From Candidatus Nealsonbacteria bacterium (lineage in GTDB: Bacteria > Patescibacteriota > Minisyncoccia > Minisyncoccales > JAGGXC01), in assembly GCA_026396195.1 (NCBI GenBank), contig JAPLXH010000005.1, positions 3,710 through 67,709 on the forward strand: a stretch of DNA of 64,000 nt, given 5' to 3'. The translations under genes were made by a program, and so were the position numbers. Under the pieces are notes generated by a model. It saw only the letters and a program-made list of their open reading frames with translations, did no database searches and was not told the DNA's origin. This document shows, one piece after another, positions 4,760 through 49,407 of the stretch (its first letter is position 1; the number at the start of each line of letters is the position of its first letter).

Positions 4760-4776
4760 TTGGATTCGTGTAATAA

Positions 4777-4800
4777 AAAATCTGCCTTTCGGCAGATTTT
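4777..4800. terminator. bidirectional hairpin terminator between convergent genes
   Basis: aaaatctgcc-tttc-ggcagatttt, flanked by A/T runs on both strands. Confidence 0.6.
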
Positions 4801-4816
4801 AATTACCAATTACTCA

Positions 4817-5566
4817 TTACGCGTTACTGTTTTTAAAAGCCTTGACTATTGGCTCTAAATTTCCATCTAAAATTTTTTCCAGATTATGCCAGGATTTTTT
4901 TATTCTATGGTCGGTTATCCGGTCTTGGGGAAAATTATAAGTACGTATTTTCTCTGACCTTTCAGCCGAACCTATCTGATTTTTTCGCTCTCCCGTAATT
5001 TTTTCTTGCTCCAGTTGTTTTTGTCTTTCAAGAAGCCTTGCCGCCAAAATGCTCATTGCGTTTTCTTTATTTTCCAGCTGATTTCTTTCGGTTTGAGAGG
5101 TGACTACCAAGCCGGTTGGCAAATGAGTAATTCTGATGGCTGTTTCTCTTTTATTTACATTCTGTCCGCCCGGTCCCGATGCTCGGTAAACGTCAATTTT
5201 TAAATTTTCCGGCCGGATTTGAATTTCCGTTGGTTTTGGTTTCAATAAAACGGCACAGGTGATAGTTGAAGTATGGACTCGGCCGTTTTTTTCGGTTCTT
5301 GGAATACGTTGAACCCGGTGAACGCCGCCTTCATGTTTTAAGCTATCCCAAGCTCCCTCTCCTTTTAGTTCGAAAATTACATGTTTTAGCCCCCTCAAAG
5401 AAGTAGGATTTATATCCAAGGTTTTTTGCTTCCAACCTCTATATTGAGCGTAATTTGAGTACATTCTGAAAAGGTCTTTGACAAACAAAGCCGCTTCCTC
5501 GCCGCCGGTTCCGGCTCTAATTTCAAAAATAAGGGCCTGGGATTCTTTTTTAACTTCATTTTCCAT
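4817..5566 (-). CDS. prfA: peptide chain release factor 1, lacking N-terminal domain 1
   Basis: GGQ motif (ASGPGGQNVNK), RF1-type recognition region RVQRIPRTEKNGRVHTS, and EIRAGTGGEEAALF close to the N-terminus. Only 249 aa. Confidence 0.8.
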   Translation of the reverse strand: MENEVKKESQALIFEIRAGTGGEEAALFVKDLFRMYSNYAQYRGWKQKTLDINPTSLRGLKHVIFELKGEGAWDSLKHEGGVHRVQRIPRTEKNGRVHTSTITCAVLLKPKPTEIQIRPENLKIDVYRASGPGGQNVNKRETAIRITHLPTGLVVTSQTERNQLENKENAMSILAARLLERQKQLEQEKITGERKNQIGSAERSEKIRTYNFPQDRITDHRIKKSWHNLEKILDGNLEPIVKAFKNSNA

Positions 5567-5568
5567 GC

Positions 5569-5799
5569 TTATTTTTTGCTTTTTTCTTTGGTTTTAGCCT
5601 TAGCCAATCTTTTTTTGAATTTTTCGACTCGTCCCATCTTGTCTAGAATTTTATCTTTTCCGGTATAGAAAGGGTGGCATTTAGAGCAAATTTCAGTTTC
5701 AATGTATTCTTTTGTTGAACCAACCGTAAAAGAGTTGCCGCAGGCGCATTGGACCTTGGCATTGGGGTAGTATTTGGGATGAATTTCTTTTTTTGCCAT
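5569..5799 (-). CDS. rpmE: 50S ribosomal protein L31
   Basis: [11 protein letters not shown]...CxC...[11 protein letters not shown], the zinc-ribbon type L31. Confidence 0.9.
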
Positions 5800-5930
5800 A
5801 AATTTTTATGATACTTTTAAGTATAATTTATAAAGACAATATAATATTCTAATTTAAATTAATAAAAAAATCAAGAAAGGCAAAGGAAAACGACATGTGT
5901 TCCTAAGAGGTCTCTTGATTAATTTTTTAG

Positions 5931-8393: not shown

Positions 8394-9899
<1,506 letters not shown>

Positions 9900-10046
9900 A
9901 TTTTAAGTGTCGGCTATAATTGAAATCGGAAATTTGGATTTTAATTATAAGGTATTAATCGAACCGCGGAAAATTGTTTTTAACAATTCCGCGCCTGCGT
10001 GAATAGAGAGTATATTCTGCGCGGTACCTTCAAAGATCGATTGCTT

Positions 10047-10073
10047 AGTTCGAAACGACTCTAAGATACTAAC
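10047..10073 (+). other. 3' strand of the pre-16S processing stem (partner 8363-8389)
   Basis: agttcgaaacgactctaa (10047-10064) is the exact complement of ttagagtcgtttcgaact (8372-8389). Pairing extends imperfectly to 8363/10073. Confidence 0.65.
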
Positions 10074-10160
10074 TTAAAAAACAAAAGCCTTTACCCCCCT
10101 CCCTTATTATAAGGGAGGGGGTTTACAGTTTTTGTATTTTTAATTAAAATCATGTTATAA

Positions 10161-10232
10161 GGGCGTGTGGCTCAGTGGTAGAGCGCGTTCCTGATAAGAA
10201 CGAGGTCGAAGGTTCGATTCCTTCCACGCCCA
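10161..10232 (+). tRNA. tRNA-Ile(GAU)
   Basis: GGGCGTG TG GCTC AGTGGTA GAGC G CGTTC CTGATAA GAACG AGGTC GAAGG TTCGATT CCTTC CACGCCC A. Confidence 0.95.
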
Positions 10233-10353
10233 CTTATAAAAGGGCCTATAGCAAAACAGAATTTTGATATATCAAGCTTCAGCTTGCTATAGTTTAATGG
10301 CAGAACACTACATTTGTCCCGATTGGAAATCGAGGATTCCTGATAACTTTGGT

Positions 10354-10428
10354 GGGCCCGTAGTTTAGTGGTAGAACGCCTCATTTGCAATGAGGAGATT
10401 GTGGGTTCGATTCCCGCCGGGTCCACCA
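10354..10428 (+). tRNA. tRNA-Ala(UGC), CCA encoded
   Basis: GGGCCCG TA GTTT AGTGGTA GAAC G CCTCA TTTGCAA TGAGG AGATT GTGGG TTCGATT CCCGC CGGGTCC A CCA. The G3:U70 identity pair is present. Confidence 0.95.
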
Positions 10429-10436
10429 AAGTTATC

Positions 10437-10575
10437 GGAACAAGTAGGGATGGAACAGTTCCCTGCCTGCCGGCAGGCAGGGATTCTGCCTAGGTCCACT
10501 GAAAGTTCGAGTCCCGTAGTCCCCGCCGACAACACCGCTTTTTAATAAGGCGGTTTTTTGGTAGAATAAAAGAAC
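10437..10575 (+). repeat. cassette-array boundary repeat A
   Basis: Contains the 22-nt palindrome ccctgcctgccggcaggcaggg (10461-10482), gttcgagtcccgtagtccccgcc (10505-10527), the hairpin ccgc...ggcgg plus a T-run, and TGGTAGAAT 8 nt before the ATG. Confidence 0.7.
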
Positions 10576-10833
10576 ATGAAAAAAATAAGTAAATTAGCAA
10601 TTCTTAGTTTTATTTTTTCAACTTTTGTTTTTCTTATTCCATTTATTGATAGATATATTCCTTATCCTTTTCCTCGCGAAACTGTTTATAGCCTTTTAGA
10701 TTATGGTGGTAATTTTGCAGCTTTAATATTAGGAGTAATAGCTTTAATTTATGTTAAGAAGAAAGAATTGAAAGGACAGTGGTTTGCGATATTAAGTATT
10801 ATTTTAGCGGCTATTGCTTCTCTCTATGTATAA
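10576..10833 (+). CDS. small multi-TM membrane protein (cassette 1)
   Basis: 85-aa ORF, three hydrophobic segments. Start is 8 nt after a TAGAAT -10 box. Confidence 0.5.
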   Translation: MKKISKLAILSFIFSTFVFLIPFIDRYIPYPFPRETVYSLLDYGGNFAALILGVIALIYVKKKELKGQWFAILSIILAAIASLYV

Positions 10834-11031
10834 CAGGCTCTAACATGGTTCGGTAAGAAAACCTAAATTTATCACAAAAATCCCCATTATTCTCCCTAAT
10901 CCTGGTTCTAACCCTTCGGCAGGCTCAGGACTAAGTCCTTCGGGGGTACTCAGGACTTATGCTACGTCTACAAGTCCCCGCAAACAACAGCCGCTTTTTA
11001 ATGAGGCGGTTTTTTGGTAGAATAGGGGAAT
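10834..11031 (+). repeat. cassette-array repeat B (with extra GC-rich mini-repeat insert)
   Basis: Blocks in order: caggctctaacat, ccccattattctccctaatcctggttctaac, gtctacaagtccccgc (10966-10981), hairpin plus T-run, TGGTAGAAT. Confidence 0.75.
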
Positions 11032-48268: not shown

Positions 48269-48421
48269 TTGACAAGTTAATATAGTTTTATATATAATGG
48301 CATTATCCCGTAGACAGCAGGCTCTGCGACAAGCTCATAAGACCTGCCGAGGAAAAAGAATATATGTTTTTATTCTATTTTTCGTCTGCGGAGAGCAGAC
48401 TTTTTGATTTATAAAAAAAAC
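48269..48421 (+). promoter_or_regulatory. rplJL promoter and leader with terminator-like hairpin (putative L10 autoregulatory leader)
   Basis: TTGACA (48269-48274), 16 nt, TATAAT (48291-48296). The leader has CAGCAGG/CCTGC pairing and GTCTGC-ggaga-GCAGAC+TTTTT (48384-48405), just before the ATG at 48422. Confidence 0.45.
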
Positions 48422-48940
48422 ATGCCAATCACAAAAAAACAAAAACAAGAAATTATTGAGGACTTAAAAGAAAAAATCAAACAGCAAAAAACGATTATTT
48501 TTGTTGATTTTAAGGGACTGAAAGTAAAAGATGTTTTTGATTTCAGGAAAAAGTTAAGAAAAGTGAATTCTTTATTTAAGGTATCTAAAAAGACCTTATT
48601 TAGAATAGCCCTTAAAGACCTGGACTCGGCTTTGTCCGAGAAGGTTGAGAAGTTGGAAGGACAAATAGGGCTTATTTTCGGCTTTAAAGATGAAATTTCA
48701 GCGGCAAAAGTTGCTTATAATTTTGCCAAAGAAAAAGAAAATCTTAAAATATTGGGAGGTTTTTTTGAAGGAAAAATTATTGATAAGGAAACGATTGCGG
48801 AATTAGCTAAAATTCCGGGCAAAGAAGAGTTGTTGGGCAGGTTGGTCGGAGCTATTGCAGCTCCCATTACTAATTTTGCTTGTGTTTTACAAGGAAACAT
48901 TAAAGGTCTGATTTGCGTGTTAAGCGCAATTAAAAAATAA
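48422..48940 (+). CDS. rplJ: 50S ribosomal protein L10
   Basis: [35 protein letters not shown]. Followed by rplL. Confidence 0.9.
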
Positions 48941-48951
48941 TTAAAAAAAAT

Positions 48952-49407
48952 ATGACAGAAGAAAAAAAATCCGCCCCCGCTGAAGCTACGGCGGAAAAGG
49001 AAGAAAAAATAAATGTTCCCGAAAAGTTTAAAAGCTTGGTAAAAGAGATAGAAACTCTTTCGGTTTTGGACTTGGCGGAACTGGTAAAAGTTTTAGAGAA
49101 AAAATTTGGCGTTTCAGCAGCTCCTCAGATTATAGCTGCCCAGCCAACAGCTGCCGGAAGTGCAGAATCCTCAGGCGCATCAGAAAAATCAATTTTTACC
49201 ATAGAGTTGAAAGAAGTGGGAGTAAAAAAGATAGAAGTGATTAAAGCAATCAGAGATATTACCCAGAAAGGATTGAAAGAAGCCAAAGACTTGGTTGATG
49301 CCGCCGAAAAAGCAGCTCAGGTGGTGAAAGAAAACGTCAAGAAAGAAGAAGCCGAAGAAATTAAGAAAAAATTAGAAACTGCCGGAGCAAAAGTTGAACT
49401 TAAATAA
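48952..49407 (+). CDS. rplL: 50S ribosomal protein L7/L12 with ~25-aa N-terminal extension
   Basis: [19 protein letters not shown] and [24 protein letters not shown]. Confidence 0.9.

What the first reader, a model, noticed from the sequence alone, without database searches (positions are those of the whole stretch)
4817..5566. Release factor 1 without its N-terminal domain
The only ORF for this RF is 249 aa and begins about 10 residues before the EIRAGTGGEEAALF block. That block sits around residue 105 in E. coli RF1. The stop codon of rpmE lies 2 nt upstream of the ATG (TAA-GC-ATG on the minus strand), so there is no room for domain 1. Domains 2-4 look intact, with the PxT-like PRT motif and GGQ. 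Domain 1 contacts the L11 stalk and RF3. A naturally domain-1-less class I release factor would be an interesting minimal termination system.
Basis: partly seen in the sequence, partly recalled or inferred. Interest (0 to 1): 0.55.

Follow-up and report, generated by a model that had tools for sequence, protein, structure and literature searches.

The report
Release factor 1 naturally lacking domain 1
This ultra-small (CPR/Patescibacteria) bacterium, like many of its relatives, makes its stop-codon reader RF1 without the N-terminal domain that other bacteria use to dock on the ribosomal stalk and to be recycled by RF3, so nature has repeated a deletion previously known only from engineered E. 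coli RF1.

Summary
Window 4817-5566 (-) encodes a 249-aa RF1 that starts 2 nt after the rpmE stop codon. Only 9 codons are open upstream. It aligns to RF1 from about residue 100-110 onward. Domains 2-4, the PxT motif (PRT) and GGQ are intact; domain 1 is absent.

It is not an artefact or a PrfH/ArfB-like paralogue:
- The same rpmE-prfA arrangement holds truncated and full-length RF1 genes across Patescibacteria.
- The closest truncated orthologue, on an 804-kb contig, gives dN/dS 0.07.
- 69 of the 120 nearest protein clusters are equally short, as are 10 of 27 GTDB species loci.

Short forms are interleaved with full-length ones, so domain 1 was probably lost several times. TAG, which only RF1 reads, ends rpsB, tsf and dnaK in the window, so RF1 activity is needed. 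TGA stops are also used, so an RF2 must exist, but I could not find it for this genome.

Two new points: loss of domain 1 correlates with Lys/Arg at the x position of PxT, and many Patescibacteria RF2 genes lack half of their domain 1.

Likely mechanism (inferred): ordinary UAA/UAG release without stalk or RF3 contacts. I found no published description. Not excluded: a second prfA elsewhere in the genome.

The parts
4817..5566 (-). prfA orthologue encoding a 249-aa RF1 made of domains 2, 3 and 4 only (no domain 1)
   Evidence: ORF. Pfam PCRF 96-193/194 plus full RF-1. NCBIfam prfA aligned from profile position 101. PDB RF1 alignments start at residues 85-111. Structure model matches RF1 1rq0 with TM 0.83. 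dN/dS 0.07 against L001.
5495..5524 (-). EIRAGTGGEE block (residues 15-24), the start of domain 2 with the conserved helix-tip residues that read the first stop-codon base in RF1
   Evidence: Coordinates checked by translation. Residues invariant across 120 relatives. Their role is taken from established RF1-ribosome structures, not tested here.
5294..5302 (-). PxT 'tripeptide anticodon', here Pro-Arg-Thr (residues 89-91)
   Evidence: P89 and T91 are invariant. x is Lys/Arg in 59 of 69 truncated relatives against 2 of 32 full-length relatives.
5162..5170 (-). GGQ peptidyl-tRNA hydrolysis motif (residues 133-135)
   Evidence: Invariant across relatives.
5567..5568 (-). 2-nt spacer (GC) between the rpmE stop TAA and the prfA ATG. 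No Shine-Dalgarno-like motif upstream. Expression is probably by termination-reinitiation coupling (inferred).
   Evidence: The same 2-nt spacer is in L001/L002 and a 1-nt spacer in L083.
5569..5799 (-). rpmE (ribosomal protein L31, 76 aa), first gene of the rpmE-prfA pair
   Evidence: Pfam Ribosomal_L31, E 7e-29, covering 2-64/65. Found upstream of prfA in 25 of 27 Patescibacteria loci.
4771..4800 (-). Terminator-like hairpin (10-bp stem AAAAUCUGCC/GGCAGAUUUU with a GAAA loop) followed by U-rich sequence, 17 nt after the prfA stop
   Evidence: RNA fold -18.3 kcal/mol, z = -5.2, 0 of 200 shuffles as stable. The simple consensus scan did not list it.
5846..5874 (-). Promoter-like hexamers (TTGATT-17-TAGAAT) upstream of rpmE, in the AT-rich region shared with divergent rpsB. 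Weak evidence.
   Evidence: 9 of 12 matches, but the number of such sites in the region is no greater than in shuffles.

Best explanation
This is the organism's housekeeping RF1 (the prfA orthologue). An in-situ 5' deletion removed the roughly 100-residue N-terminal helical domain 1. The decoding superdomain (domains 2/4, PxT = PRT) and the catalytic domain 3 (GGQ) are left intact.

**Expression.** It is co-transcribed with rpmE and probably translated by coupling to it (stop, 2 nt, start). A hairpin terminator follows the gene.

**Mechanism (inferred).** It binds the A site at UAA and UAG, opens from the compact to the extended form, and hydrolyses peptidyl-tRNA like any RF1. It lacks the domain-1 contacts with the L11 stalk and with RF3, so it must arrive and leave unaided. 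This is what E. coli RF1 lacking domain 1 does in vitro and, more slowly, in vivo.

**Distribution.** The state is common in the Parcubacteria/Paceibacteria part of the Patescibacteria (CPR) and seems to have arisen several times. It tends to come with a Lys/Arg at the middle position of PxT and a more basic core, possibly to compensate for lost binding energy (speculative).
For: **Shown**
- Domain 1 is absent and cannot be encoded upstream.
- The fold equals RF1 domains 2-4.
- All 56 invariant columns of 120 relatives are retained, including the G/E helix tip, P..T, H-T-S-T, GGQ and RTYNFPQ.
- dN/dS is 0.07 at dS 0.77 against the 804-kb-contig orthologue.
- rpmE is directly upstream of both truncated and full-length RF1 in 25 of 27 GTDB-species loci.
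- The wider synteny is shared by the window, L001 and L083 (truncated) and L085 (full length, 83% identical to L083's protein).
- 69 of the 120 nearest 90%-identity clusters and 10 of 27 GTDB species loci have fewer than 20 residues before EIRAG. Several sit on contigs of 146-957 kb.
- In the window TAG ends rpsB, tsf, prs and dnaK, so RF1 activity is needed. TGA ends 12 of 72 ORFs, and tRNA-Trp is CCA only, so the code is standard.
- There is no RF paralogue and no stand-alone domain 1 in the 64 kb.

**From the literature**
- Domain 1 is dispensable for codon-specific release in vitro, and truncated RF1 works in vivo.
- Domain 1 is needed to stimulate RF3.
- prfC is missing from small genomes. 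All three points are from Mora et al. 2003 as summarised in PMC1586002.
- PKT is a working RF1 anticodon motif in human mtRF1a, which reads UAA and UAG (PMC1976341).
Against: - The whole genome was not available, so a second full-length prfA, a trans-encoded domain 1, and the status of prfB, prfC, rplK and prmC in this organism are untested.
- No biochemical data exist for any of these proteins.
- The protein fails NCBI's prfA equivalog cut-off, though only because about 100 profile positions are missing.
- 'Several independent losses' rests on neighbour-joining trees of a 238-column alignment: 13 changes, bootstrap range 10-14. Three clear nearest-neighbour cases support it.
- The PxT Lys/Arg association (7 of 13 independent pairs against 0) depends on those same trees.
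Confidence: 0.85

Rival explanations
1. It is an accessory paralogue (a PrfH- or ArfB-like rescue or specialised factor), and a canonical full-length prfA exists elsewhere in the genome.
For: - Known domain-1-less class I RF relatives (PrfH, ArfB/ICT1) are accessory factors.
- Only 64 kb of the genome could be inspected.
Against: - It scores 363 bits as prfA against 93 as PrfH and 43 as ArfB.
- It is 60-70% identical to full-length Patescibacteria RF1 over the shared region.
- It occupies the same rpmE-prfA slot as the full-length genes, not the rtcB-prfH arrangement.
- No assembly in the genome scan gave two RF1-level hits, though that scan is not exhaustive.
- CPR genomes are about 0.6-1 Mb and rarely keep paralogues (general knowledge).
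Confidence: 0.05
2. The gene is split: domain 1 is encoded by a separate small ORF elsewhere and joins the core in trans.
For: Nothing direct. Domain 1 is a flexibly attached module (PMC1586002), so a split is conceivable.
Against: - 31 domain-1 queries gave no tblastn hit better than E 0.047.
- A domain-1 HMM gave no hit better than E 0.56 in the six-frame translation of the window.
- None is annotated in the 20 kb around the orthologue in L001.
- Partial-deletion forms (P0120, P0321) and several different N-terminal boundaries point to erosion rather than a tidy split.
Confidence: 0.03
3. Artefact: a mis-called start, an assembly error, a pseudogene, or an L31-RF1 fusion made by frameshifting or readthrough at the 2-nt junction.
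For: - Many 'short RF1' entries in the 50%-identity representative library are artefacts, with an internal Met start and frameshifted C-termini.
- The rpmE stop sits in an A-rich run.
Against: - The same architecture appears in independent assemblies from JGI, Logan, ENA and NCBI.
- There is an in-frame stop 9 codons upstream.
- dN/dS is 0.07.
- The rpmE-to-prfA distance varies from -26 to +97 nt among truncated loci, with no conserved frame relation, so a fusion is not conserved.
- L31 is complete on its own.
Confidence: 0.02
4. The truncated RF1, with its basic PxT (PKT/PRT), has broadened specificity and is the only class I release factor of the cell.
For: - The RF2 of this genome, or of the 804-kb relative, did not appear among the best 120 hits of two RF2 searches.
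- TGA stops are nevertheless used.
- The PxT middle residue changes together with the truncation.
Against: - RF2 genes are common in Patescibacteria, including MAGs labelled Nealsonbacteria from the same submission batch (P0204 = MCX6759969.1; L031).
- PKT in mtRF1a reads only UAA and UAG.
- The failed linkage is easily explained by showing 120 of 8000 hits.
- All RF1-specific decoding residues are unchanged.
Confidence: 0.03

Closest known systems
Canonical bacterial RF1 (prfA; TIGR00019 / NF001859; structures 1RQ0, 4V63)
   Same: - 50-53% identity to Thermotoga and Thermus RF1 over domains 2-4.
- PxT, GGQ, the helix-tip G/E residues and the switch-loop region are present.
- The compact fold is the same (TM 0.83).
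- The rpmE-prfA gene position matches full-length Patescibacteria RF1.
   Different: - The whole N-terminal helical domain 1 (about 100 aa) is missing.
- The score falls below the NCBIfam equivalog cut-offs.
- The middle PxT residue is Arg/Lys rather than Ala/Val/Glu.
Engineered E. coli RF1 and RF2 lacking domain 1 (Mora, Zavialov, Ehrenberg & Buckingham 2003, as summarised in PMC1586002)
   Same: - Same architecture (domains 2-4 only).
- These constructs keep codon-specific release in vitro, function in vivo, and lose stimulation of RF3.
- This is the direct mechanistic precedent.
   Different: - Those are laboratory deletions in a bacterium that has RF3.
- Here the deletion is natural, fixed, under purifying selection, and spread over many lineages.
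PrfH (RFH; TIGR03072)
   Same: A class I RF homologue that naturally lacks domain 1 and is translationally coupled to its upstream gene.
   Different: - PrfH has altered decoding residues, is paired with an RtcB-like gene, and is an accessory or rescue factor.
- The window protein scores 93 bits against a cut-off of 167 for PrfH.
- It keeps RF1 decoding residues and sits behind rpmE.
ArfB / ICT1 / C12orf65 (GGQ-only rescue factors)
   Same: Share the GGQ domain (residues 114-147 match ArfB).
   Different: Those factors lack the codon-reading domains 2/4 and act independently of stop codons. The window protein keeps the full decoding domain.
Human mitochondrial mtRF1a
   Same: An RF1-type factor with a basic PxT (PKT) that reads UAA and UAG (PMC1976341). 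It works in a system without an RF3 homologue (my own knowledge, not checked).
   Different: mtRF1a keeps an N-terminal domain: the alignment to 7nqh_BL starts at residue 108 of 362.

Membership tests
RF1 (prfA) | PCRF plus RF-1 Pfam domains | tested here: met
   PCRF E 8e-42, but only profile positions 96-193/194. RF-1 E 6e-40, full length.
RF1 (prfA) | NCBIfam equivalog score at or above the cut-off (NF001859 at 400; TIGR00019 at 423) | tested here: not met
   363.3 and 353.4 bits. The shortfall matches the roughly 100 missing profile positions. NCBI therefore names it only 'PCRF domain-containing protein'.
RF1 (prfA) | PxT tripeptide at the decoding loop (as opposed to SPF in RF2) | tested here: met
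   PRT at residues 89-91. P and T are invariant in 120 relatives.
RF1 (prfA) | GGQ catalytic motif | tested here: met
   Residues 133-135, invariant.
RF1 (prfA) | N-terminal helical domain 1 (L11-stalk and RF3 contact) | tested here: not met
   Alignments begin at RF1 residues 85-111. Only 9 codons are open upstream. There is no domain-1-like ORF in the window.
RF1 (prfA) | Orthology by gene position with accepted prfA genes | tested here: met
   The rpmE-prfA pair is found in 25 of 27 Patescibacteria loci of both length classes. The wider synteny is shared by truncated L001/L083 and full-length L085.
RF1 (prfA) | UAA/UAG-dependent peptidyl-tRNA hydrolysis on the ribosome | not testable with these tools
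   Only indirect support: TAG stops end essential genes in the window, and the gene is under purifying selection.
RF1 (prfA) | It is the only RF1-type gene of the genome | tested here: inconclusive
   No second RF gene in the 64-kb window or within 10 kb of any RF1 locus.
PrfH | TIGR03072 score at or above 166.65, and pairing with an upstream RtcB-like gene | tested here: not met
   92.6 bits. The upstream gene is rpmE.
RF2 (prfB) | SPF motif; TIGR00020 score at or above 370 | tested here: not met
   229.7 bits. The motif is PRT, not SPF.
ArfB | GGQ domain plus a C-terminal tail, no decoding domain; NF006718 score at or above 100 | tested here: not met
   42.5 bits, covering residues 114-147 only.

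The most novel reading that the evidence does not exclude
Patescibacteria of the Parcubacteria/Paceibacteria group have repeatedly remodelled translation termination so that class I factors work without the stalk/RF3 module. Three observations would fit together:
- RF1 lost domain 1 completely in many independent lineages.
- Each loss tends to come with a compensating basic residue in the PxT anticodon motif and a more basic core.
- RF2 in a large sister set of genomes lost its frameshift autoregulation and half of its domain 1.

If so, this would be a naturally evolved, RF3-independent and L11-contact-free termination cycle on an already reduced CPR ribosome.
Probability: 0.35. Interest if true: 0.72.

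Novelty: new variant of a known kind. Interest (0 to 1): 0.6.

Why it matters
- **A natural test of domain 1.** Domain 1 of class I release factors is present in essentially all characterised bacterial RF1 and RF2. Its role (L11-stalk docking, RF3-driven recycling) has been debated since the domain-deletion experiments of 2003. A large natural group in which the housekeeping RF1 has dispensed with it, apparently many times, shows that the domain is truly optional in vivo.
- **What compensates.** The group provides dozens of natural 'experiments' for asking what makes up for the loss. Candidates are a basic PxT, a more basic core, changes in the stalk, and absence of RF3.
- **CPR translation.** It adds a translation-factor example to the known reductions of the CPR ribosome.
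- **Annotation.** These proteins are currently labelled only 'PCRF domain-containing protein', so genome surveys may wrongly score RF1 as absent in these lineages.
- **Engineering.** It offers compact RF1 scaffolds for in vitro translation and genetic-code engineering.

Tried and rejected
1. **Linking RF2 to the same genome by contig length.** I searched two canonical Nealsonbacteria-type RF2 queries (L031's product and P0204). I looked for hits whose longest contig is 104,380 or 804,028 nt. None appeared among the best 120 of 8000 in either search, so the RF2 of this organism remains unidentified.
2. **Linking by NCBI accession proximity.** P0001 is MCX6764280 and the Nealsonbacteria RF2 P0204 is MCX6759969. 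They are 4311 accessions apart, so they come from a different MAG of the same batch.
3. **Looking up the window's own contig.** The look-up of encoding contigs for P0001 found nothing on record, so the remaining roughly 40 kb of the 104-kb contig could not be read.
4. **L31-RF1 fusion by frameshift.** Rejected because the spacing and frame vary among relatives.
5. **Stand-alone domain 1 in the window.** No hit.
6. **L11 in the window.** Absent. One truncated-RF1 locus (L013) does carry a full-length L11 with its N-terminal domain, so loss of L11 is not a general correlate.
7. **Consensus terminator scan.** It missed the hairpin after prfA. Folding shows the hairpin.
8. **Short RF1s outside CPR.** The 50%-identity representative library was searched for N-terminally short RF1. 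The non-CPR cases inspected are artefacts.
9. **Literature.** Six searches and the papers read for this question gave no description of a natural domain-1-less RF1 or of shortened RF2 in CPR. The library covers only open-access papers and preprints.
10. **RF3 (prfC).** Its presence or absence in these genomes was not tested, because no suitable query or whole genome was available.

Full report
**1. The observation**

The ORF at window 4817..5566 (-) is 249 aa. The 76-aa ORF directly upstream, 5569..5799 (-), is ribosomal protein L31. Its Pfam match (E 7e-29) covers profile positions 2-64 of 65. The junction reads ...AAA TAA GC ATG GAA..., so 2 nt separate the rpmE stop from the ATG. In the RF frame an in-frame stop lies only 9 codons upstream of the ATG, so no alternative start could add a domain.

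The profile and structure comparisons agree on what is missing:
- Pfam finds the RF-1 domain in full but only positions 96-193 of the 194-position PCRF profile.
- The NCBIfam prfA equivalogs align from profile positions 101 and 110. They score 363 and 353 bits, under their cut-offs of 400 and 423.
- Against solved structures the protein aligns to T. maritima RF1 85-318, T. thermophilus RF1 105-342 and E. coli RF1 111-342.
- EIRAGTGGEE starts at residue 15, PRT is at 89-91 and GGQ at 133-135.
- An AlphaFold2 model built from 120 homologues has pLDDT 83 and pTM 0.80, with residues 1-8 disordered. It matches the compact free form of T. maritima RF1 (1rq0) with TM 0.83 and rmsd 2.1 A.

**2. It is real, and it is the prfA orthologue**

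The identical protein is in NCBI as MCX6764280.1, 'PCRF domain-containing protein [Candidatus Nealsonbacteria bacterium]', on a 104-kb contig. A 91%-identical 249-aa protein lies on an independent 804-kb JGI contig, with the same rpmE, 2-nt spacer, prfA arrangement and the same neighbours (tsf-rpsB divergent; SLT-type lytic enzyme, L25, ferredoxin and FBP aldolase convergent). Codon comparison of the two genes gives dS 0.77, dN 0.057 and dN/dS 0.07. That is a gene under strong purifying selection, not a decaying remnant.

One scan of GTDB species genomes returned 27 Patescibacteria RF1 loci (51-65% identity).
- 10 encode RF1 of 241-250 aa (one of 301 aa with a C-terminal extension), with 6-17 residues before EIRAG.
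- The rest are full length (one is 325 aa, with 91 residues before EIRAG).
- rpmE lies immediately upstream in 25 of the 27, in both length classes. The two exceptions have too little upstream sequence to tell.

A second truncated lineage shows the same pattern. P0109 (250 aa, seen on contigs up to 146 kb) and its nearest relative P0094 (full length, 347 aa, 83% identical in the shared region) have the same wider synteny. The short genes are therefore in-situ deletion derivatives of prfA.

The rpmE-prfA spacing in truncated loci ranges from -26 to +97 nt with no fixed frame. This rules out a conserved L31-RF1 fusion.

**3. How common it is, and how often it arose**

Among the 120 closest 90%-identity clusters, 69 have fewer than 20 residues before EIRAG and 32 are full length. 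The rest are partial genes or intermediate forms. Two intermediates, P0120 (291 aa) and P0321 (269 aa), keep the first helix start (M-x-D-I-x-x-I-K-K-E-Y-K) and then jump to domain 2.

Evidence that the loss happened more than once:
- Neighbour-joining trees of the shared 238 columns need 13 changes between the truncated and full-length states (bootstrap range 10-14). A random trait needs about 28, and a single loss would need 1.
- In three cases a truncated protein is clearly closer to a full-length one than to any other truncated one: P0109 (83% against 79%), P0059 (80% against 76%) and P0118 (84% against 76%).
- The N-terminal boundary is clade-specific (6, 8-9, 11-16 or 22-43 residues).

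I read this as several independent losses. The exact number is uncertain because the trees are weak.

In the 50%-identity representative library, full-length RF1 dominates the best 150 hits. The N-terminally short non-CPR entries I inspected are artefacts: they start at an internal Met and have frameshifted C-termini. The state therefore looks specific to this CPR group.

**4. Is RF1 activity needed here, and is it the only factor?**

Of 72 non-overlapping ORFs in the window, 47 end in TAA, 13 in TAG and 12 in TGA. TAG ends rpsB, tsf, prs and dnaK. The only tRNA-Trp has anticodon CCA. The code is therefore standard, RF1-type activity is required for essential genes, and RF2-type activity is required too.

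What could and could not be found:
- No RF paralogue exists in the window, and none within 10 kb of any RF1 locus.
- No stand-alone domain-1 ORF exists in the window.
- I could not find the RF2 of this genome.
- RF2 proteins from MAGs labelled Nealsonbacteria or Staskawiczbacteria are canonical. They have the CTTTGA frameshift site and a full domain 1.
- A second prfA elsewhere in the genome is unlikely but not excluded.

**5. Mechanism**

The experiments of Mora et al. (2003), as summarised in PMC1586002, show three things. E. coli RF1 without domain 1 keeps codon-specific release in vitro. It works in vivo. It cannot stimulate RF3. The same source notes that prfC is missing from small genomes.

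All decoding and catalytic residues are invariant in the truncated proteins. The most likely mechanism is therefore ordinary RF1 action at UAA and UAG without stalk or RF3 contacts, followed by unaided dissociation. This is inferred, not shown.

Expression is probably from an rpmE-prfA bicistron:
- There is no SD-like motif before the ATG, and the spacer is 2 nt.
- A stable hairpin plus U-tract follows the stop codon (-18.3 kcal/mol, z = -5.2).
- The promoter-like hexamers upstream of rpmE are weak evidence.

One truncated-RF1 genome (L013) keeps a full uL11, so loss of L11 is not a general correlate.

**6. A new correlate**

The alignment column that best separates truncated from full-length RF1 is the middle residue of PxT. 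It is Lys/Arg in 59 of 69 truncated proteins and in 2 of 32 full-length ones, where Glu is the commonest residue. In the separate set of GTDB loci the counts are 9 of 12 against 0 of 16.

The trees were then rebuilt without that column, and 13 phylogenetically independent truncated/full-length pairs were compared. Lys/Arg is present only in the truncated partner in 7 pairs, and only in the full-length partner in none.

The shared region is also more basic in truncated proteins (+15.2 against +11.8; p = 1e-4, not corrected for phylogeny). PKT is a functional RF1 motif in human mtRF1a, which reads UAA and UAG (PMC1976341). A compensating gain in binding energy is a plausible but speculative reading, and shared ancestry hidden by poor trees is the alternative.

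**7. RF2 in the same phylum**

Of the 53 Patescibacteria RF2 loci returned by the same scan, about 37 encode proteins of 287-312 aa. These have no CTTTGA frameshift site and only 47-59 residues before the domain-2 block. For example, L075 residues 4-41 align to RF2 of 9fy1 (B. subtilis) residues 27-64, and residues 29-288 align to 102-359. These proteins lack the pre-frameshift peptide and about 40-50 residues of the middle of domain 1. Shrinkage of domain 1 is thus a broader trend in CPR class I factors. Whether short RF2 and short RF1 occur in the same genomes could not be determined.

**8. Comparison with what is known, and novelty**

The protein works like RF1 and is the orthologue of RF1 by gene position and sequence. 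It fails one defining structural feature (domain 1) and the NCBIfam equivalog score. It is not PrfH (93 bits against a cut-off of 167; not paired with rtcB), not ArfB and not RF2.

The closest precedent is the engineered E. coli deletion. The closest natural analogue in architecture is PrfH, which is an accessory factor with changed decoding residues.

Six literature searches and the papers read for this question turned up no description of natural domain-1-less housekeeping RF1, or of shortened RF2, in CPR. The library covers open-access papers and preprints only.

I rate this a new variant of a known kind, with interest about 0.6. A termination specialist would find it noteworthy and testable, but it fits what the deletion experiments predicted.

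Noticed in passing
window 9860-9899 (3' end of 16S rRNA, 8395-9899 +); also L001 minus strand, starting about 14.6 kb into its reverse complement: The 16S rRNA ends ...GGGGAACCUGGGGAUGGAUCAAUUAUUUA. The canonical anti-Shine-Dalgarno CCUCC is replaced by AUUAU. The related 804-kb contig has the same 3' end. Only 18 of 60 window genes have any SD-like 4-mer upstream. This lineage seems to initiate without SD pairing, which also bears on SD-dependent prfB frameshifting.
   Followed up: partly
window 8395-10428: The 16S rRNA is followed by tRNA-Ile(GAT) and tRNA-Ala(TGC), but there is no 23S rRNA in the following 53 kb. The rRNA genes appear to be unlinked.
   Followed up: no
loci L033, L035-L037, L039, L042, L044, L046, L048-L054, L056, L057, L059, L061, L062, L064-L070, L072-L076, L078-L082: About 37 of 53 Patescibacteria RF2 genes are short (287-312 aa). 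They have no CTTTGA programmed-frameshift site and lack the pre-frameshift peptide plus about 40-50 aa of the middle of domain 1. About 13 others (including L031 Nealsonbacteria and L045) are canonical, with the frameshift site.
   Followed up: partly
proteins P0120 (291 aa) and P0321 (269 aa), relatives of the window RF1: These are intermediate RF1 forms. They keep the first dozen or more residues of domain 1 (M-x-D-I-x-x-I-K-K-E-Y-K...) and then join directly to domain 2. They are internal in-frame deletions of a different extent, which suggests stepwise or independent erosion of domain 1.
   Followed up: partly
window 5294-5302 (PRT) and the alignment A1 column for residue 90: The middle residue of the PxT motif is Lys/Arg in 86% of truncated RF1 but in 6% of full-length relatives. 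The shared core of truncated proteins carries about 3.5 more net positive charges.
   Followed up: yes
window 48290-48414 and 48404-49407: An L10 leader RNA (Rfam RF00557, 51.9 bits) precedes rplJ-rplL, but rplK-rplA are not upstream. A DJ-1/PfpI-like ORF is there instead, identified only by eye from its N-terminal sequence. The L11 gene is elsewhere in the genome.
   Followed up: no
proteins P0336, P0367, P0347, P0411, P0444, P0400, P0408, P0468 (50%-identity representative library): These apparent 'N-terminally short RF1 with long C-terminal extension' entries are artefacts. They start at or near the conserved (LL)P(K/R)DPND linker, at an internal Met or mid-gene, and end in frameshifted, Arg/Pro/Gly-rich translation. 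Length surveys of RF1 in such libraries need filtering.
   Followed up: yes
locus L023 (JBAZJI010000001.1, 957-kb scaffold), 9971-10876: This RF1 lacks domain 1 (17 residues before EIRAG) but is 301 aa because of a C-terminal extension of about 50 aa of unknown nature.
   Followed up: no
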